A stretch of DNA of 13,639 bases, from the NCBI GenBank assembly GCA_049968235.1, contig JBMFRC010000036.1, positions 1 through 13,639 of the forward strand. The letters run 5' to 3'. The number at the start of each line of letters is the position of its first letter. Position 1 is the first letter of the stretch. The notes beneath the pieces were generated by a model. The model had not been told where the DNA came from. It was given only the letters and a program-made list of their open reading frames with translations, and searched no databases. The position numbers and the translations under genes are program-made. Positions 9,084 to 13,639 of this stretch are shown here, piece after piece. The stretch is from Candidatus Hydrogenedens sp. Its GTDB lineage: Bacteria > Hydrogenedentota > Hydrogenedentia > Hydrogenedentales > Hydrogenedentaceae.

Positions 9084-9208
9084 ATTAATATGCTAACTGA
9101 AACTGTACATGAAAAGAATGGGGAAAGTAATTGTTAAAGGGAAATTTTAAATTATTGTAACTTTTTTTTAATATTGATTGTTGTATTTTTTTTCCCTATT
9201 TAAAAAAG

Positions 9209-9401
9209 ATGCGCACGGGCATTACTATCGGAACAGGCATAGGAGGGGGGGATAGGAGCCCGTGCGCTGGGGAGGGTACTGTGCAGGGTAGTGAGGGCTG
9301 TGTGTGTGGTAATAAGTTAATTGTACCTGTGGTCTGGGTTGGGAGGAAGGCCAGATTTAGCAGGGCAACGTTTGTTAAACTTACCTCACTTTCTTCACAG
9401 G
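9209..9401 (+). ncRNA. Candidate structured RNA or regulatory element: a G-rich island inside a ~1-kb AT-rich intergenic region. Class unknown and strand uncertain.
   Basis: There is an abrupt composition shift to G-rich sequence. A 10-bp perfect inverted repeat GCGCACGGGC (9211-9220) / GCCCGTGCGC (9258-9267) encloses a 37-nt loop. G-tracts lie at 9269-9297, a G7 run at 9245-9251 and (TG)5 at 9299-9308. Secondary pairings are CCTGTG 9326-9331 with CACAGG 9396-9401 and TCTGG 9333-9337 with CCAGA 9351-9355. The overlapping 69-codon ORF has no RBS and a codon usage unlike the rest of the window. Confidence 0.3.
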
Positions 9402-9456
9402 AAAATATTCAAATTTAATAGAGCAATTATCTATTTTATTTATACTATAAACGCCC

Positions 9457-9470: not shown

Positions 9471-9982
9471 GTTTACAATTCTTTTGTGTAAAAATCTATA
9501 AAAATTAAATATCATTAAATTTTATATAACTTTCACTCAATATTATAGCACAAAAAATTCATAAAATCAAATTTTTTAACAAAAATTTACATATCAATTA
9601 TAATAAAATAATTTGGTCTTTTATTCCTCAAAAAGTTTATATTTATTTAAAAATTATTGGAAATAGATTCACAAAATTTGTTTTTGACTATCCACTCGTT
9701 GAATAAAATCCAAAAGATTTTTTAGTTGTTTTGAAAGGATTTAAGAATAAATTATACAACAAAAAATAATGATAATTTACGATGAATGTTCGAAAGACTA
9801 TTTCAAAGATAGGAATTTAAATAATTTATTTTAATTTTGTAGGTGATATGCTATTACTACCCTTTAATATTAAAGTATAAGGGATAATGGATATAATAAA
9901 AATAATCGACATTATAGTGGCTATATTTTTTATAATCAATTTTATCTCAGTGATTTATTTCAAAAACAGGTAAGTTTTTAGT

Positions 9983-10008: not shown

Positions 10009-11013
10009 ATGGCAGATATTTTGAGCCAGGAAGAAATAGATTTATTATTAGGTTCTGTTACAACGGGAACTGTTGATACAGTCAAAAAAGAGGAACAAGA
10101 GGGCGAGCAAAAAGTTAGTGCTTATGATTTTCGCAGACCGGAACGTATTTCTAAAGAGCAGTTAAAGGGTTTACAAAGTATTTTTGAGTCCTTTGCCCGT
10201 GAACTTACAATAGTGCTCCCTCCATATTTTCGGACTATAGTCCGTGTTGACCTTATATCTATTGACCAATTAACTTATGATGAATTCATTCTTGCAATTT
10301 CCAGACCTACCTGTCTTGTCGTAGTTAATATGTCTCCATTAGATGGAGCGGGAATTTTAGAATTAAGTCCAACTGCTATTTTCCCAATAATTGACCGTGT
10401 ATTAGGGGGTAAAGGAAAGATATTACCTGAATTGCGAGAATTAACAGAAATAGAAGAGAGAATTATCGGGCGTATCGTAGAAATGATGTTGAGTTGTCTC
10501 AAAAGGGCATGGGAACAGGTTATCGAATTGAACTCTCGCGTTGAATCAATAGAAAGTGACCCGTTGATTGTTCAAATTGTTGCGGGTAGTGAGATGACTA
10601 TTCTCGTCAGTTATGAAATTCATGTTGGCGAAAACACAGGGACTATTAATTTTTGTATTCCTTTGATGGTAATGAATCCTCTTTTAGACCAGATATCCAA
10701 AATGGCTCATTATGCCCATCGAGTTAGTCCTGAAGAGGCAGAGTTAACACGTATTATGTTATTAAAACTTTTATTGAATGCCCCGATTAAATTGGATACA
10801 ATTTTAGGACGAGTAAATGTTGAGATGAGTGATTTAGTCGATTTGAAAGAGGGGGATGTTTTAGTGTTGAATAGAAAAATTGAAGAGCCTATTGTTGTTG
10901 AGATTGAAGGTTTACCAAAACTAAAAGGAACCATTGGTAGAAGAGGAGAAGAAATGGCATTGCGTATCTGTTCCATAATTCGGGATGAAAAAAATCCTGA
11001 AAATTATCTGTAA
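10009..11013 (+). CDS. fliM: Flagellar motor switch protein FliM
   Basis: 334 aa. The N-terminal CheY-P-binding peptide is MADILSQEEIDLLLG (LSQxEIDxLL). It is followed by YDFRRPERISKEQLKGLQSIFESFAR, which is FliM family. It has a CheC-like middle domain and a C-terminal FliN-like region. AAAGGA RBS 9 nt upstream. Confidence 0.93.
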   Translation: MADILSQEEIDLLLGSVTTGTVDTVKKEEQEGEQKVSAYDFRRPERISKEQLKGLQSIFESFARELTIVLPPYFRTIVRVDLISIDQLTYDEFILAISRPTCLVVVNMSPLDGAGILELSPTAIFPIIDRVLGGKGKILPELRELTEIEERIIGRIVEMMLSCLKRAWEQVIELNSRVESIESDPLIVQIVAGSEMTILVSYEIHVGENTGTINFCIPLMVMNPLLDQISKMAHYAHRVSPEEAELTRIMLLKLLLNAPIKLDTILGRVNVEMSDLVDLKEGDVLVLNRKIEEPIVVEIEGLPKLKGTIGRRGEEMALRICSIIRDEKNPENYL

Positions 11014-11026
11014 AGGAAGATGTTCG

Positions 11027-11965
11027 ATGAGATTAAACGAAATAATTGATTTGTTTTTCAAAGGTCTGGATGATGTTTTGTTATCTTTAGGAATAGGGGG
11101 AAATAAATATAAGATTCATGCAACAAAAATTATTGGGATAGAGGATATTCAATCTACCTTAAATGAGCAAAGTATTGTATTATGGGGAAAAGTTGAAAAA
11201 AATCAGGGTATATTGTTGTTATGTATGAACAGTGATGATGTCCGTGCATTAGTAGGGGCTGTTGAAGGAACAGTTCCTGAAGAAATAAATGAGACTGTTA
11301 TAAGCACATTGAAGGATTTGGGAGATGCATTTTTAGGGGGTGCCTTGAGTTCTCTTGCACAGTCTGCTAAAAAAGGTGTAGTACAGTTTGAACTTACAGG
11401 AATCCGGAAAGGGGAAGAAATATTTGACGCATCGTTTTATTCCCAAATTCAAGAGCCGGTCATATGTGGCTCCGTTGCGGTAGAAGGTAATATAAACTTT
11501 TCGTTCCCATGGATAGTAGTATTAGATAATCTTCTGAAAACATGGTTTCCCATAGATGAGGAAAAAGCAGGTGTAGAAGAGACTATGTTGACACAGGAAG
11601 AAATAGAATCGTTTATTAACAATGAAGTAATAAAACCAGAAACAAAGAAAGAAGAACAAACTACAGGAGCAAAACCCGTGAGTAAAAAATCAATAGATTC
11701 GGGTTACCGTAATTTGGATGTTATCTTGGATATTCAGGTGGAAGCCACAGCCCGATTGGGGAGTGTGCAAATGCCTCTAGCAACAGTGTTAAGTTTAGGG
11801 CCCGGTTCTGTAATCAATGTCGGACATGAGGTTGACAATCCCATTGAATTGTATGTGAATAATAAATTAATTGCCAAAGGCGATGTGGTTATCGTAGATG
11901 AAAAATTTGGTATTCGAATAACAGAAATTGTAAGTCCCCAGGAACGGATAGAGAGTTTACAGTGA
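11027..11965 (+). CDS. fliN: Flagellar motor switch protein FliN/FliY-like: an extended N-terminal domain plus a C-terminal FliN (SpoA) domain
   Basis: The C-terminal ~80 aa (LDVILDIQVEATARLGSVQMPLATVLSLGPGSVINVGHEVDNPIELYVNNKLIAKGDVVIVDEKFGIRITEIV) is the FliN/SpoA surface-presentation domain. I prefer the ATG at 11027 because AAGGAAG lies 7 nt upstream and it is just after the fliM stop. The longest ORF starts at 10985 and overlaps fliM by 29 nt, but it has no RBS. The N-terminal ~220 aa may have a degenerate CheC-like fold (EEIN is present but the full D/S-x3-E-x2-N-x22-P motif is not). Confidence 0.8.
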   Translation: MRLNEIIDLFFKGLDDVLLSLGIGGNKYKIHATKIIGIEDIQSTLNEQSIVLWGKVEKNQGILLLCMNSDDVRALVGAVEGTVPEEINETVISTLKDLGDAFLGGALSSLAQSAKKGVVQFELTGIRKGEEIFDASFYSQIQEPVICGSVAVEGNINFSFPWIVVLDNLLKTWFPIDEEKAGVEETMLTQEEIESFINNEVIKPETKKEEQTTGAKPVSKKSIDSGYRNLDVILDIQVEATARLGSVQMPLATVLSLGPGSVINVGHEVDNPIELYVNNKLIAKGDVVIVDEKFGIRITEIVSPQERIESLQ

Positions 11966-12720
11966 GTATCAGCGAAGAAAAAATATTATGGCAAAGATAT
12001 AAAGAAGAAAATGACGAATCTGCACGTGAGGAATTAATATACAAATATATGCCTATCGTTCGATTCATTGCAGGTAGAATTGCCATTCATGTTCCTCCCT
12101 CCATAGAGTTAGACGATTTGATTGGCTGGGGAATTGTAGGGTTATTGGATGCGATGGAACGGTATGATTACAAGCAGGATACACGGTTTAATACTTATGC
12201 ATCTATCCGTATACGCGGAACTATTTTAGACCAGATACGCTCTCTGGATTGGGCTCCCCGTTCTTTGAGAAGTATGGCTCGGAGAGTAGGTGCTGTTTCG
12301 GAGAAGTTGAGGCATCAGAAAGGGGGAGAACCTACAATTCATGATATTGCAGAGGCTTTAGGTGTAAGTTCGGAGCATATAGAAGAAACGGTGGCTAATT
12401 TACAAACGGTTCAGATGCTTTCTTTAGACCATTTTGCTATTTCGGAGGATGATGGCGCCGGGCGGACAAGGGAAATTAATACTGACGCATTCTATCCTTC
12501 TCCAGAAGAGGTGGCTCGTCAAAAAGAATTGCAAGAATTGCTTGTAGAAGCAATTATGAAACTGCCAGAACAACAGCAAAAAGTTCTTCATCTATACTAT
12601 TATGAAGAGTTAACATTAAAGGAAATCGGTGAAGTTCTTCAAGTTTCCGAATCACGGGTTTGTCAGATTCATGCCAGTGCTATTAAAACATTACGCGAAT
12701 TGGTAAAGTCGTGGGTATGA
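11962..12720 (+). CDS. fliA: Flagellar sigma factor sigma-28 (FliA/WhiG/SigD family)
   Basis: 252 aa. Region 2 is YMPIVRFIAGRI...ERYDYKQDTRFNTYASIRIRGTILDQIRSLDWAPRS (FliA-type LDWAPRS). The region 4 HTH is LTLKEIGEVLQVSESRVCQIHASAIKTLR. The GTG start at 11962 overlaps the fliN stop (GTGA), indicating translational coupling. Confidence 0.92.
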   Translation: MSISEEKILWQRYKEENDESAREELIYKYMPIVRFIAGRIAIHVPPSIELDDLIGWGIVGLLDAMERYDYKQDTRFNTYASIRIRGTILDQIRSLDWAPRSLRSMARRVGAVSEKLRHQKGGEPTIHDIAEALGVSSEHIEETVANLQTVQMLSLDHFAISEDDGAGRTREINTDAFYPSPEEVARQKELQELLVEAIMKLPEQQQKVLHLYYYEELTLKEIGEVLQVSESRVCQIHASAIKTLRELVKSWV

Positions 12721-12723
12721 TTT

Positions 12724-13053
12724 ATGCCGATGCCTATTGACCCAAATACTGAAATCTTGCGGGTAAATCTCGCGGAACGAATTCAACAAATTTCGGACAG
12801 GGCTTCTTTGTTAGGACAGGTTCGTCAATCTTTGAATGAGGAACAGCAACGGGTTGTTGATGAAACACAGGTAAAAGAAATGCAACAAAAGAGTGAACAG
12901 GTTGAGACCGAACTTAAAAGAAAGAATCCTTTTTTAGGGCGTAGGCGGAAGCCACAAAAGGAAGAATATAAAGAGGTATCTTCGGATGAAGAAATTAAAG
13001 GAACTTATGAAGATACAAAAGATGATGGTTCTCATCTGGATTTGCAAGCATAA
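12724..13053 (+). CDS. Hypothetical highly charged (K/E/Q-rich), probably disordered 109-aa protein, translationally coupled to fliA
   Basis: The ATG lies 3 nt after the fliA stop (TGATTTATG). The composition is low-complexity and charged (EEQQRVVDETQVKEMQQKSEQVETELKRK...) with no TM segment. I recognise no family. Its size and position are reminiscent of FlgM-type anti-sigma factors, but I see no FlgM sequence similarity. Confidence 0.5.
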   Translation: MPMPIDPNTEILRVNLAERIQQISDRASLLGQVRQSLNEEQQRVVDETQVKEMQQKSEQVETELKRKNPFLGRRRKPQKEEYKEVSSDEEIKGTYEDTKDDGSHLDLQA

Positions 13054-13083
13054 TTATAAAAAATAAAAAACGAGTTGGTTAAA

Positions 13084-13639
13084 ATGACATTACTGGTTAT
13101 AATCACATGGTTGGGTGTTCTCCTTATTGTGTTGTGCTTATTTTACTATGTATGGGATGACCGTAATAAAAGAAAACTTCATGAACATCGCCGGGTAGAA
13201 ATCAGTGAATTAGCCATGGTCTTTCAAACTTTGAGGGATGTTGTTTCAGAACAGAAAATACTGGCGAAAGAATTCAATGAACAGGTAGAAGAAAAAATAA
13301 CATTAATTCGTGGTATTGTAAATGAAGCCCAGAATAAGGTGAAGCAGATACAGCAGGAAATATATGAGCAATCTAAAAAACTAAACGAATTACAGGAACA
13401 AATGGATAGGATTATATGTCAAAAGAATGCCTTAAATGCTTCATCTACAAGTGATATTTATTCCATAGGAACAGTCTCCATTATAGAAGCAGAATCTATA
13501 TGCGAAAAATTAAATGAAAAAATGGAAGGTAATAAGAATATAATACAAGAAATGCCATTGGAAGAAATTAAAGAAATAAGTAAAACAGAAGATGAAAAAC
13601 TTTTAATAAATTTAGGAGAGGAACAGAAAAATATACGAG
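13084..13639 (+). CDS. Hypothetical membrane-anchored coiled-coil protein, 3'-truncated by the window end; not in the supplied ORF track
   Basis: The ATG at 13084 opens frame 1 with no stop to the window end (185+ codons). There is an N-terminal TM helix (MTLLVIITWLGVLLIVLCLFYYVW) followed by heptad-like coiled-coil sequence rich in Q/E/K (NEAQNKVKQIQQEIYEQSKKLNELQEQMDR...). It runs in the same orientation as the flagellar genes, 30 nt after the preceding ORF. Confidence 0.5.
   Translation, partial: MTLLVIITWLGVLLIVLCLFYYVWDDRNKRKLHEHRRVEISELAMVFQTLRDVVSEQKILAKEFNEQVEEKITLIRGIVNEAQNKVKQIQQEIYEQSKKLNELQEQMDRIICQKNALNASSTSDIYSIGTVSIIEAESICEKLNEKMEGNKNIIQEMPLEEIKEISKTEDEKLLINLGEEQKNIR

What the first reader, a model, noticed from the sequence alone, without database searches (positions are those of the whole stretch)
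12724..13639. Two uncharacterized genes translationally coupled downstream of fliA: a disordered charged 109-aa protein (FlgM-analog?) and a membrane-anchored coiled-coil protein missed by the ORF track
The 109-aa ORF starts 3 nt after the fliA stop. It is extremely K/E/Q-rich with no predicted structure or TM segment, the same size class and intrinsic disorder as the anti-sigma-28 factor FlgM. I cannot see FlgM sequence motifs, so it may be a functional analog or something new. It is followed 30 nt later by an ORF that has no stop before the window end, so it is not in the supplied track. That ORF has one N-terminal TM helix and a long Q/E/K coiled coil. Both are candidates for novel flagellar regulatory or assembly components in the same operon as the sigma factor.
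Basis: partly seen in the sequence, partly recalled or inferred. Interest (0 to 1): 0.5.

Follow-up and report, generated by a model that had tools for sequence, protein, structure and literature searches.

The report
Conserved sigma-28 partner gene plus SwrB-like gene
Right after the flagellar sigma factor gene of this Hydrogenedentota bacterium lie a small, strongly conserved protein with no known relatives, which may regulate that sigma factor, and a membrane protein that belongs to the SwrB family known from Bacillus flagellar assembly.

Summary
Both ORFs are real genes at the stated coordinates. They belong to a seven-gene operon, fliM-fliN/Y-fliA-orf109-orf2-fliK-flhB(C)-like. This order holds in all 36 species-level Hydrogenedentota genomes recovered, wherever the contig is long enough.

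ORF2 is cut by the contig end and is 265 aa in the closest orthologue. It is not novel. It belongs to Pfam DUF6115, the family of B. subtilis SwrB. It has an N-terminal membrane helix, a long coiled coil and a C-terminal sigma-region-4/LuxR-type HTH. [quoted passage not shown]

ORF109 founds an orphan family of 102 clusters at 50% identity. Every named member is from Hydrogenedentota. None of the 78 members scanned matches any Pfam or NCBIfam family, FlgM included, and the family profile has no PDB sequence match. It is not structureless. It has a confident 60-residue helix, a basic RRNPFxGRRRR motif, an acidic disordered tail and a conserved C-terminal HxLDVxI. dN/dS is 0.01-0.07. Its start lies within 9 nt of the fliA stop, or overlaps it by 1 nt, in 25 of 36 genomes.

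My best guess, which is inferred and untested, is a sigma-28-binding regulator that works like FlgM. It is not a FlgM homologue.

The parts
10009..11013 (+). fliM, first gene of the operon (context)
   Evidence: PF02154 FliM E 3e-59 and TIGR01397 at 294 bits.
10985..11965 (+). fliN/fliY-type switch protein with a long N-terminal extension (context)
   Evidence: The FliMN_C domain lies at residues 247-316 (E 1.5e-21). TIGR02480 scores 86.7 bits.
11962..12720 (+). fliA (sigma-28, FliA/WhiG family)
   Evidence: TIGR02479 scores 252 bits against a cut-off of 189.6. Sigma70 regions 2, 3 and 4 are present.
12718..12726 (+). fliA stop / ORF109 start junction (TGA TTT ATG)
   Evidence: The gap is 3 nt here. 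Across 36 genomes the gap is -1 nt (stop overlapping the ATG) in 12, 0 to 9 nt in 13, and 20-24 nt in 7.
12724..13053 (+). ORF109, founding member of an orphan Hydrogenedentota family
   Evidence: 102 clusters were found in an exhaustive profile search. There is no Pfam, NCBIfam or PDB match. dN/dS is 0.01-0.07.
12742..12924 (+). ORF109 residues 7-67: long helix preceded by the near-invariant N-terminus MPxPID
   Evidence: The AlphaFold2 helix H7-67 has block-mean pLDDT of 90-95 for residues 11-60. D6 is invariant and E10, R13, R19, R26, R34 and E47 are at least 90% conserved in 78 sequences. Conserved residues lie all around the helix.
12916..12960 (+). ORF109 residues 65-79: basic motif (K/R)RxNPFxGRRR(K/R), net charge +8
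   Evidence: Column conservation and charge count.
12961..13032 (+). ORF109 residues 80-103: variable acidic tail
   Evidence: pLDDT is below 50 for residues 75-103. Net charge is -7. Length and sequence vary between species.
13033..13050 (+). ORF109 residues 104-109: conserved C-terminal motif H-x-L-D-(V/I/L)-x-(I/V/A)
   Evidence: D106 is present in 77 of 78 sequences, L/F105 in 72 of 78, and V/I/L107 in 78 of 78.
13054..13083 (+). 30-nt spacer between ORF109 and ORF2
   Evidence: Read from the sequence. The spacer is 24-192 nt in relatives.
13084..13639 (+). ORF2, the N-terminal 185 codons of a SwrB-family (DUF6115) protein, cut by the contig end
   Evidence: It is 78% identical over 185 aa to the 265-aa orthologue in L001. 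That orthologue hits DUF6115 at 30.4 bits against a cut-off of 27, and 17 of 17 orthologues hit it. The window fragment lacks the C-terminal domain, so it gives no hit on its own.
13090..13155 (+). ORF2 residues 3-24: single transmembrane helix, predicted N-out/C-in
   Evidence: A hydrophobic run is followed by DDRNKRKLHEHRR, which fits the positive-inside rule. This is the topology shown experimentally for SwrB (bioRxiv 10.1101/2021.04.30.442225).
13186..13296 (+). ORF2 residues 35-71: near-invariant juxtamembrane segment HRRVEISELAMxFQTLRDVVSEQKxLAKEFNExVEEK
   Evidence: Most columns are invariant across 17 orthologues.
13297..13452 (+). ORF2 residues 72-123: variable coiled-coil continuation of the same helix
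   Evidence: The AlphaFold2 helix spans residues 2-123.

Best explanation
Shown:
- The window ends inside a conserved flagellar operon, fliM-fliN/Y-fliA-ORF109-ORF2-fliK-flhB(C-terminal domain)-like. This operon is found throughout the phylum Hydrogenedentota.
- ORF2 is a SwrB/FlgW-family protein (Pfam DUF6115).
- ORF2 has an N-out/C-in membrane helix, a conserved juxtamembrane helix, a long coiled coil, a variable linker and a C-terminal three-helix HTH of the sigma-region-4/LuxR type.
- ORF109 is a separate, strongly constrained protein family with no detectable relatives outside the phylum.
- The ORF109 start codon abuts or overlaps the fliA stop codon.

Inferred for ORF2: like B. subtilis SwrB, it acts at the inner face of the membrane and promotes activation of the flagellar type III export apparatus once the basal body and C-ring are in place.

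Inferred for ORF109, with less certainty:
- It is made in step with sigma-28 and binds it.
- Its long helix folds onto a partner.
- It holds or chaperones sigma-28 until the export and hook checkpoint is passed. That checkpoint would be run by the SwrB-like, FliK and FlhB-like products of the same operon.
- This makes it a functional analogue of FlgM, not a homologue.
For: Operon and synteny:
- All 36 GTDB species loci show the same gene order wherever the contig allows.
- The 403-aa downstream gene is fliK. PF02120 hits 9 of 10 orthologues, 3 of them above the cut-off.
- The last gene matches TIGR00789 flhB_rel at E 2e-28.

ORF2:
- DUF6115 hits 17 of 17 orthologues.
- Authentic B. subtilis SwrB (P0147) carries the same Pfam family.
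- hhalign of the two families gives probability 88% and E 3e-6 over the C-terminal HTH. L253 of the 265-aa orthologue aligns to SwrB L155, and L155P inactivates SwrB (bioRxiv 10.1101/2021.04.30.442225).
- swrB directly follows sigD in B. subtilis.
- The HTH superposes on RcsB, DesR and sigma region 4 structures at 0.6-0.9 A over 42-47 residues.

ORF109:
- dN/dS is 0.01-0.07.
- Median identity of the N-terminal 70 residues across the phylum is 54%. This is close to FliA (60%) and FliM (57%), and far above FliN (33%), ORF2 (28%) and FliK (22%).
- The fliA-ORF109 gap is 9 nt or less, or a 1-nt overlap, in 25 of 36 genomes.
- Conserved residues lie on all sides of a low-hydrophobicity helix, as expected for a segment that is wrapped by a partner.
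- The size and the disordered tail resemble FlgM.
- From established knowledge: sigma and anti-sigma genes are commonly adjacent and co-translated, and sigma-28 release is normally tied to the FliK/FlhB export switch.
Against: - No binding to FliA has been shown or modelled.
- ORF109 has no sequence similarity to FlgM or to any anti-sigma factor.
- In FlgM it is the C-terminal half that is conserved and binds sigma-28. Here the N-terminal 70 residues are the conserved part.
- A comparison of evolutionary distances gave no excess co-variation between ORF109 and FliA. The partial r was 0.03.
- I could not check whether these genomes also carry a canonical flgM elsewhere. If they do, the case weakens.
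- For ORF2, the SwrB transmembrane histidine (H13) is absent.
- For ORF2, the similarity detected by hhalign is confined to the C-terminal HTH.
Confidence: 0.4

Rival explanations
1. ORF109 works with the SwrB-like protein or the export gate (FlhB, FliK, or the FlhB-C-like product), not with sigma-28. For example, it could be an adaptor whose conserved termini dock on the membrane-tethered HTH or on the export apparatus.
For: The order ORF109-swrB-like-fliK-flhB-like is invariant. ORF109 has conserved extreme N- and C-termini separated by a flexible acidic linker, which suits a two-point tether. The weak residual distance correlation is highest with the FlhB-like protein, at r 0.21.
Against: The tight start/stop junction is with fliA, not with ORF2, where the spacer is 24-192 nt. 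B. subtilis SwrB works without any such neighbour, because swrB directly follows sigD. The correlation of 0.21 is too weak to count as evidence.
Confidence: 0.22
2. ORF2 acts like FipA of gamma-proteobacteria. Its C-terminal domain would recruit FlhF, or another placement factor, to the membrane and set flagellar position. It would not activate export as SwrB does.
For: The architecture is the same as FipA: a transmembrane helix, a coiled region and a C-terminal domain (PMC11620751). All 17 orthologues give sub-threshold DUF2802 hits, best E 1.8e-5. The invariant residues G234, E250 and L253 have the same spacing as the FipA residues G110, E126 and L129. Of those, G110 and L129 are needed for FlhF binding (PMC11620751).
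Against: DUF6115 (SwrB) scores better than DUF2802 and passes its cut-off. DUF2802 scores 14.4 bits for the L001 orthologue against a cut-off of 33.5. No flhF or flhG lies near the operon, and their presence elsewhere in these genomes was not tested. No FipA sequence was available for a direct alignment.
Confidence: 0.2
3. ORF109 is a small nucleic-acid-binding regulator. For example, it could act on flagellar mRNAs or on DNA through its arginine-rich helix and RRRR patch.
For: R13, R19, R26 and R34 are near-invariant, and there is a +8 basic motif. A conserved structured RNA-like element lies upstream of the same operon.
Against: ORF109 shows no similarity to any known RNA- or DNA-binding family. 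An acidic tail and a conserved C-terminal peptide are more typical of protein-protein regulators. Nothing links ORF109 to the RNA-like element except that both are in the same locus.
Confidence: 0.08
4. ORF109 is an export chaperone or an exported early or late substrate of the flagellar type III system, with no regulatory role.
For: It is small, helical and partly disordered, and it sits in a flagellar operon beside fliK.
Against: No member hits the FliJ, FlgN, FliS or FliT models. Such genes are usually next to their substrates or next to fliI. Export signals are not normally conserved at the sequence level, whereas MPxPID is near-invariant.
Confidence: 0.08
5. ORF109 is a chance ORF or an annotation artefact in the fliA-ORF2 spacer.
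For: None was found.
Against: dN/dS is 0.01-0.07 with saturated synonymous sites. There are 102 sequence clusters of constant length, about 100-126 aa. The position is conserved in 36 species.
Confidence: 0.01

Closest known systems
SwrB of Bacillus subtilis (Pfam DUF6115; equated with Campylobacter FlgW in PMC9321776)
   Same: ORF2 orthologues hit the same Pfam family above its cut-off. They share the single N-terminal membrane helix with a cytoplasmic bulk, the conserved juxtamembrane helix, the poorly conserved middle and the conserved C-terminal HTH. The leucine equivalent to SwrB L155 is present. The gene lies just downstream of the sigma-28 gene.
   Different: ORF2 is longer, 265-300 aa against 167 aa, because of an extended coiled coil. 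The transmembrane histidine needed for SwrB puncta is absent. One extra gene (ORF109) sits between the sigma gene and ORF2. It comes from a different phylum, whereas SwrB was described as narrowly distributed (bioRxiv 10.1101/2021.04.30.442225). hhalign detects similarity only over the last 37 residues or so.
FipA of Vibrio, Pseudomonas and Shewanella (Pfam DUF2802), the FlhF partner
   Same: Both have a membrane helix, a coiled region and a C-terminal domain. The gene sits at the end of a fliA-containing motility operon. The spacing G-x15-E-x2-L matches that of the conserved FipA residues (PMC11620751).
   Different: DUF2802 hits are only sub-threshold. The link to FlhF is untested. The FipA authors state that FipA homologues are absent from Bacillus, so the relationship between DUF2802 and DUF6115 is my inference from weak HMM cross-hits.
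FlgM, the anti-sigma-28 factor
   Same: ORF109 has a similar size and is partly disordered. It is encoded in a flagellar operon whose other products (FliK, FlhB-like) run the export switch that normally controls FlgM.
   Different: There is no sequence homology: none of 78 members hits the Pfam or NCBIfam FlgM models. The conserved part is N-terminal rather than C-terminal. flgM is not usually placed directly after fliA. Binding and secretion are untested.
RsiG, the helical c-di-GMP-dependent anti-sigma factor of WhiG in actinobacteria
   Same: RsiG is a helical coiled-coil-type partner of a FliA/WhiG-family sigma factor. This description rests on my own knowledge. The only tool evidence is that the PDB entry 7LQ4, an (RsiG)2-(c-di-GMP)2-WhiG complex, appeared as a match to the ORF2 HTH.
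   Different: The ORF109 profile gives no hit to any PDB sequence at E up to 10, and that set includes the RsiG chains. I also did not find the RsiG motif E-x3-S-x2-R-x3-Q-x3-D in ORF109 by eye.

Membership tests
SwrB / DUF6115 (PF19610) | Match to the family HMM above the curated cut-off | tested here: met
   The L001 orthologue scores 30.4 bits against a cut-off of 27. All 17 orthologues hit, best E 5e-9. The window copy lacks the C-terminal domain because the contig ends, so it does not hit on its own. It is 78% identical to the L001 orthologue over all 185 residues present.
SwrB / DUF6115 (PF19610) | Authentic SwrB belongs to this Pfam family | tested here: met
   B. subtilis SwrB (P0147 and many others) carries PF19610. 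NCBI uses the names 'SwrB' and 'DUF6115 domain-containing protein' interchangeably.
SwrB / DUF6115 (PF19610) | Single N-terminal membrane helix with the bulk of the protein in the cytoplasm | tested here: met
   The hydrophobic residues 3-24 are followed by a +5 cluster. The AlphaFold2 helix spans residues 2-123. The topology is predicted, not measured.
SwrB / DUF6115 (PF19610) | Conserved C-terminal HTH, including the leucine whose mutation (L155P) inactivates SwrB | tested here: met
   hhalign gives probability 88% and E 3e-6, and L253 aligns to L155. L253 is invariant in 17 orthologues.
SwrB / DUF6115 (PF19610) | Histidine within the membrane helix (SwrB H13), needed for puncta | tested here: not met
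   No histidine occurs in residues 1-24 of any orthologue. W9 is invariant instead. In SwrB this residue is only conditionally required.
SwrB / DUF6115 (PF19610) | Gene placed after the sigma-28 gene | tested here: met
   swrB follows sigD directly in B. subtilis. Here the gene follows fliA with ORF109 in between, in all 36 genomes.
SwrB / DUF6115 (PF19610) | Needed for hook assembly and activation of type III export | not testable with these tools
   This needs genetics in a cultured or surrogate host.
FipA / DUF2802 (PF10975) | Match to the family HMM above the curated cut-off | tested here: not met
   The L001 orthologue scores 14.4 bits against a cut-off of 33.5. All 17 orthologues hit below threshold, best E 1.8e-5.
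FipA / DUF2802 (PF10975) | Co-occurrence with FlhF/FlhG and binding to FlhF | not tested
   No flhF or flhG lies within the loci fetched. Whole genomes could not be searched.
FlgM (PF04316 / TIGR03824) | Sequence match to the FlgM models | tested here: not met
   None of the 78 ORF109 family members hits at E up to 0.1 in Pfam or E up to 1 in NCBIfam.
FlgM (PF04316 / TIGR03824) | Small protein, largely disordered when free | tested here: inconclusive
   ORF109 is 109 aa and its tail (residues 75-103) is disordered. Residues 7-67 are predicted as one isolated helix. Such a prediction is compatible with folding on binding but does not show it.
FlgM (PF04316 / TIGR03824) | Binds sigma-28 and is exported after hook completion | not testable with these tools
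Sigma-70 region 4 / LuxR-GerE HTH fold (C-terminal domain of ORF2 orthologues) | Three-helix HTH that superposes on solved members | tested here: met
   In Foldseek, RcsB, DesR, TraR and sigma region 4 chains match at rmsd 0.6-1.3 A over 42-48 residues with probability 0.99-1.0. Sigma70_r4 hits 17 of 17 orthologues, best E 1e-6. BLASTP against the genome's own FliA finds nothing.
FliK (PF02120), the gene after ORF2 in relatives | C-terminal Flg_hook domain | tested here: met
   Nine of 10 orthologues hit at E up to 0.003, and 3 of them exceed the 29.8-bit cut-off. This gene lies beyond the end of the window.

The most novel reading that the evidence does not exclude
ORF109 is a new kind of anti-sigma-28 factor, unrelated to FlgM. 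It would switch partners between the region 4 of FliA and the region-4-like HTH that the SwrB-family protein holds at the membrane. When the basal body is complete, the membrane-tethered decoy would capture ORF109 and free sigma-28. [quoted passage not shown]
Probability: 0.08. Interest if true: 0.8.

Novelty: new variant of a known kind. Interest (0 to 1): 0.45.

Why it matters
How flagellar gene expression is tied to assembly is known in detail only for a few model bacteria, where FlgM is the link.

ORF109 is a phylum-wide protein with no known relatives. It is as conserved as FliA itself and its gene abuts the sigma-28 gene. That makes it a concrete candidate for a second, independent solution to the same control problem. 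It is small enough to test directly for binding.

ORF2 extends the SwrB family, which was described as narrowly distributed, to a distant and uncultured phylum. It also places the gene in one operon with fliA, fliK and an FlhB-like gene. This fits the proposed role of SwrB at the export-activation checkpoint.

The weak but consistent cross-hits between DUF6115 (SwrB) and DUF2802 (FipA) suggest that these two separately studied proteins share a common C-terminal module.

Tried and rejected
ORF109 homology searches, all negative or uninformative:
- Pfam and NCBIfam scans of ORF109 and of 78 family members gave only noise, such as ATP synthase b and other long helices.
- A profile search of all PDB sequences at E up to 10 gave nothing.
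- A Foldseek search of the ORF109 model against PDB gave nothing usable, as expected for a single helix.
- hhalign of ORF109 against ORF2 showed no relation.
- I looked by eye for the RsiG c-di-GMP motif E-x3-S-x2-R-x3-Q-x3-D in ORF109 and did not find it.

Other tests of the ORF109 and ORF2 hypotheses:
- A comparison of evolutionary distances between ORF109 and each operon partner, controlled for FliM distance, was uninformative. The partial r was 0.03 with FliA and 0.21 with the FlhB-like protein.
- BLASTP of the ORF2 HTH against the genome's own FliA found no alignment. The 'region 4 mimic' idea therefore rests on fold and profile similarity only.

Sequence-level ideas rejected:
- fliA and ORF109 are in the same frame in this window, separated by TGA TTT, which raised the idea of stop-codon read-through. 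I rejected it as a conserved feature, because in 12 relatives the stop overlaps the ATG, which puts the two genes in different frames.
- A sigma-28 promoter consensus, TAAA-N14-16-CCGATA, has no match in the window.

Searches that could not be run or found nothing:
- The broad 78-sequence alignment was too divergent for the genome scan. The scan was run with the 19-sequence alignment instead.
- A literature search for flagellar regulation in Hydrogenedentota found nothing specific.
Full report
**Source and setting**

The window is an entire 13,639-nt contig of a Candidatus Hydrogenedens sp. metagenome-assembled genome. GenBank already lists the two ORFs as hypothetical proteins ACP5UA_14035 and ACP5UA_14040 (partial).

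On the + strand the window carries these genes:
- fliM at 10009-11013.
- A long fliN/fliY-type gene at 10985-11965.
- fliA at 11962-12720. It scores 252 bits on TIGR02479 against a cut-off of 189.6.
- The two ORFs of the finding.

**Check of the observation**

ORF109 runs from 12724 to 13053. The fliA stop codon TGA is at 12718-12720, so 3 nt separate stop and start. K+E+Q make up 33% of its residues, and it has no hydrophobic segment.

ORF2 starts at 13084, 30 nt after the ORF109 stop. It remains open for 185 codons to the last base of the contig. Residues 3-24 form a hydrophobic helix followed by a positively charged cluster.

No other ORF of 60 aa or more overlaps the region on any frame. 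The description is therefore correct, with one exception covered under ORF109 below: the protein is not structureless.

**Both ORFs are real, conserved genes**

A word-seeded search found 19 relatives of ORF109. An exhaustive profile search of 1.84 billion representative proteins found 102 clusters, nearly all 95-126 aa long. Every member that carries a taxon name is from Hydrogenedentota.

A scan of one genome per GTDB species returned 36 loci. All are Hydrogenedentota by title or by content. Some 'binchicken' MAGs carry the label 'uncultured Nitrospirales' but hold the same operon.

In every locus long enough, the gene order is fliM, fliN/Y, fliA, ORF109, ORF2 orthologue, a protein of about 400 aa, and a protein of about 100 aa.
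- The 400-aa protein is FliK. PF02120 hits 9 of 10 orthologues, 3 of them above the curated cut-off.
- The 100-aa protein is a free-standing FlhB C-terminal domain (TIGR00789 flhB_rel, E 2e-28).

Selection on ORF109 is strong:
- For the first 76 codons, dN/dS between the window and four relatives is 0.01-0.05, and 0.01-0.07 over all pairs that could be computed. Synonymous sites are close to saturation.
- Across the phylum, median identity of the N-terminal 70 residues to the window copy is 54%. This compares with 60% for FliA and 57% for FliM. It is far above FliN (33%), ORF2 (28%) and FliK (22%).

**The junction with fliA**

Across 36 genomes the distance from the fliA stop to the ORF109 start is as follows:
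- -1 nt in 12 genomes. The last base of TGA or TAA is the A of the ATG.
- 0 to 9 nt in 13.
- 20-24 nt in 7.
- 67 nt in 1.
- An apparent 53-nt overlap in 3.

Tight coupling to fliA is thus a conserved feature. The spacer between ORF109 and ORF2 is looser, at 24-192 nt.

**ORF2 belongs to the SwrB family**

The window fragment alone hits no family, because the diagnostic domain lies beyond the contig end. The 265-aa orthologue in L001 is 78% identical over all 185 shared residues. It hits Pfam DUF6115 at 30.4 bits against a cut-off of 27, and all 17 orthologues hit it, best E 5e-9.

I suspected that DUF6115 is the SwrB family and tested this in three steps.
1. A SwrB sequence recalled from memory hit DUF6115.
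2. A database search with that sequence returned authentic B. subtilis SwrB at 99% identity, carrying PF19610. NCBI uses the names 'SwrB' and 'DUF6115 domain-containing protein' interchangeably.
3. A profile-profile comparison of the Hydrogenedentota family with a SwrB alignment gave probability 88% and E 3e-6 over the C-terminal 37 residues. L253 aligned to SwrB L155.

L155P is a loss-of-function allele of SwrB. SwrB is an N-out/C-in single-pass protein whose critical residues flank a poorly conserved middle region (bioRxiv 10.1101/2021.04.30.442225). The Hydrogenedentota proteins have the same layout:
- An invariant juxtamembrane segment.
- A variable coiled coil and linker.
- An invariant HTH, ELTPVQKMVLEYHxAGMTTxEIAKELGxxKGEVRLILSLA.

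The AlphaFold2 model gives one helix over residues 2-123 and a three-helix bundle over 222-263 at pLDDT of about 90. That bundle superposes on LuxR/GerE-type and sigma-region-4 structures at 0.6-1.3 A over 42-48 residues.

In B. subtilis, swrB directly follows sigD. SwrB promotes the step from basal body to hook by activating the flagellar type III export apparatus, and it thereby indirectly raises sigma-D activity (PMC4526659). The literature equates Campylobacter FlgW with SwrB (PMC9321776; bioRxiv 10.1101/2021.04.30.442225). ORF2 is therefore a new member of a known family in a new phylum.

Its differences from SwrB are:
- Greater length, 265-300 aa.
- No transmembrane histidine.
- One extra gene between it and the sigma gene.

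**A possible link to FipA**

All 17 orthologues, and SwrB itself, give sub-threshold hits to DUF2802. DUF2802 is the domain of FipA, the membrane-anchored FlhF partner of polar flagellates. FipA has the same three-part architecture, and its conserved residues are G110, E126 and L129 (PMC11620751). The invariant G234, E250 and L253 of ORF2 orthologues have the same spacing.

The FipA paper states that FipA homologues are absent from Bacillus. The relationship is therefore my inference from weak cross-hits, not an established fact. It keeps open a rival function for ORF2: recruiting a placement factor rather than activating export.

**ORF109 is an orphan family**

None of the 78 diverse members scanned hits any Pfam family at E up to 0.1. 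None hits any flagellar NCBIfam model at E up to 1. The models with no hit include FlgM, FliJ, FlgN, FliS and FliT. The family profile matches no PDB sequence at E up to 10.

The protein has five parts:
1. A near-invariant N-terminus, M-P-(Q/M)-P-(I/V)-D.
2. A helix over residues 7-67, predicted at pLDDT above 90 for most of its length. E10, R13, R19, R26, R34 and E47 are near-invariant, and Q21, Q32 and V50 are strongly conserved. These conserved residues are spread all around the helix rather than lying on one face.
3. A basic motif, (R/K)R(R/K)NP(F/Y)xGRRR(R/K), with net charge +8.
4. A variable acidic tail with pLDDT below 50 and net charge -7. About half of the sequences carry a (T)FYxA motif here.
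5. A conserved C-terminus, H-x-(L/F)-D-(V/I/L)-x-(I/V/A).

A low-hydrophobicity helix conserved on all sides, with flexible charged regions and conserved end peptides, is the pattern expected of a protein that folds onto, and is wrapped by, one or more partners.

**Most likely mechanism**

What is shown is the gene content, the family assignment of ORF2, the constraint on ORF109 and its coupling to fliA. The mechanism below is inferred.

Adjacent, co-translated sigma and anti-sigma genes are common. Release of sigma-28 is normally tied to the FliK/FlhB export switch. This operon encodes sigma-28 together with a SwrB-like export activator, FliK and an FlhB-like domain.

I therefore rate a sigma-28-binding regulator, functionally like FlgM, as the single most likely role of ORF109. 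I give it roughly 0.35-0.4 on its own. It fails the membership test for the FlgM family, so the claim is 'works like', not 'is a'.

Points against this reading:
- Binding is untested.
- The conserved half is N-terminal, unlike FlgM.
- A distance-correlation test showed no special co-variation with FliA.
- I could not check whether a canonical flgM exists elsewhere in these genomes.

The rivals are:
- A partner of the SwrB-like protein or of the export gate.
- A nucleic-acid-binding regulator.
- An export chaperone or exported substrate.

**Novelty and score**

ORF2 is ordinary once identified. It is useful mainly because it extends the range of SwrB and shows SwrB, FliK and an FlhB-like gene in one operon with fliA.

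ORF109 is a new protein family of unknown function in an uncultured phylum, with a clear and testable hypothesis. A specialist would find it worth a binding experiment but not startling. I score interest at 0.45.

The most novel reading not excluded is this: ORF109 shuttles between region 4 of FliA and the region-4-like HTH tethered to the membrane by the SwrB-like protein. I give that about 0.08.

**Seen in passing**

The 1-kb AT-rich spacer upstream of fliM contains a G-rich segment at about 9206-9420. It is 82-89% identical in genomes whose synonymous sites are saturated.
- One- and two-nucleotide indels between close relatives rule out the 69-aa ORF called at 9209-9418.
- Rfam and ARAGORN find nothing there.
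- A covariance model of the first 125 nt finds the element in 12 sources, namely the window and 11 loci. It is always on the fliM strand and upstream of fliM: 199-336 nt from the element's end in the five more distant genomes, and 300-1,000 nt in the seven it was built from.
- Its 10-bp GC-rich hairpin has compensatory changes at 4 pairs.
- G-U pairs favour the + strand.
- The hairpin loop and the 3' flank are rich in GGA and GGAGG.

It looks like a conserved structured RNA, either a leader or a small RNA, associated with this operon. Its function is unknown.

Noticed in passing
window 9206-9420 (+); core 9206-9330; also L001 3388-3511, L005 2545-2668, L007 2109-2233, L009 2824-2945, L012 2861-2970, L013 2964-3072, L017 2999-3097, L011 2956-3060, L029 673-787, L035 3019-3113, L038 3034-3131: A G-rich, highly conserved non-coding element lies upstream of fliM. 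It has a 10-bp GC hairpin (GCGCACGGGC...GCCCGTGCGC) with a GGA/GGAGG-rich loop, followed by GGGGAGG and a long-range helix. It is 82-89% identical between genomes whose synonymous sites are saturated. Four hairpin pairs show compensatory changes, and G-U pairs favour the + strand. Neither Rfam nor ARAGORN finds a match. It is probably a structured leader or small RNA tied to the flagellar operon.
   Followed up: partly
window 9209-9418 (+): The 69-aa ORF listed here is almost certainly spurious. It lies inside the conserved G-rich element, and close relatives differ from it by 1- and 2-nt indels.
   Followed up: yes
window 9576-9604 (+): A promoter-like TTAACA-17-TATAAT (11 of 12 consensus positions) sits about 400 nt upstream of fliM. 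It is conserved in L001, L005, L007 and L009, and is a candidate promoter of the fliM-fliA operon. By eye, TTGATT (9174-9179)-17-TATTTA (9197-9202) could drive the G-rich element.
   Followed up: partly
L001 8063-9274 and 9271-9573 (beyond the end of the window): The operon continues with a divergent fliK and a free-standing FlhB C-terminal domain gene (flhB_rel). This pairing is conserved in all loci long enough.
   Followed up: yes
window 11962-13053: In this window fliA and ORF109 are in the same reading frame, separated only by TGA TTT. Read-through of the stop would give a FliA-ORF109 fusion. The arrangement is shared by the closest relatives (gap 3 nt). It is not shared by the 12 genomes where the stop and the ATG overlap.
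   Followed up: partly
L007, L008, L013, L017, L018, L021, L026, L028, L031, L032: Ten MAGs titled 'uncultured Nitrospirales' or 'uncultured Nitrospiraceae' (eight from the binchicken or SRP co-assembly series) carry the Hydrogenedentota-type operon, including ORF109. Their record titles look like wrong or placeholder taxonomy.
   Followed up: no
DUF6115 versus DUF2802 (SwrB P0147; ORF2 orthologues in A2): SwrB and all 17 Hydrogenedentota orthologues give weak hits to the FipA domain DUF2802 over the same C-terminal HTH. This suggests that SwrB/FlgW and FipA share a homologous module. The FipA paper does not mention such a link.
   Followed up: partly
window 10985-11965: The fliN-type gene encodes 326 aa. 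Only the last 80 or so residues match FliN/SpoA, and the long N-terminal part matches no CheC-type or other family. It is the least conserved of the switch genes, with a median identity of 33%.
   Followed up: no
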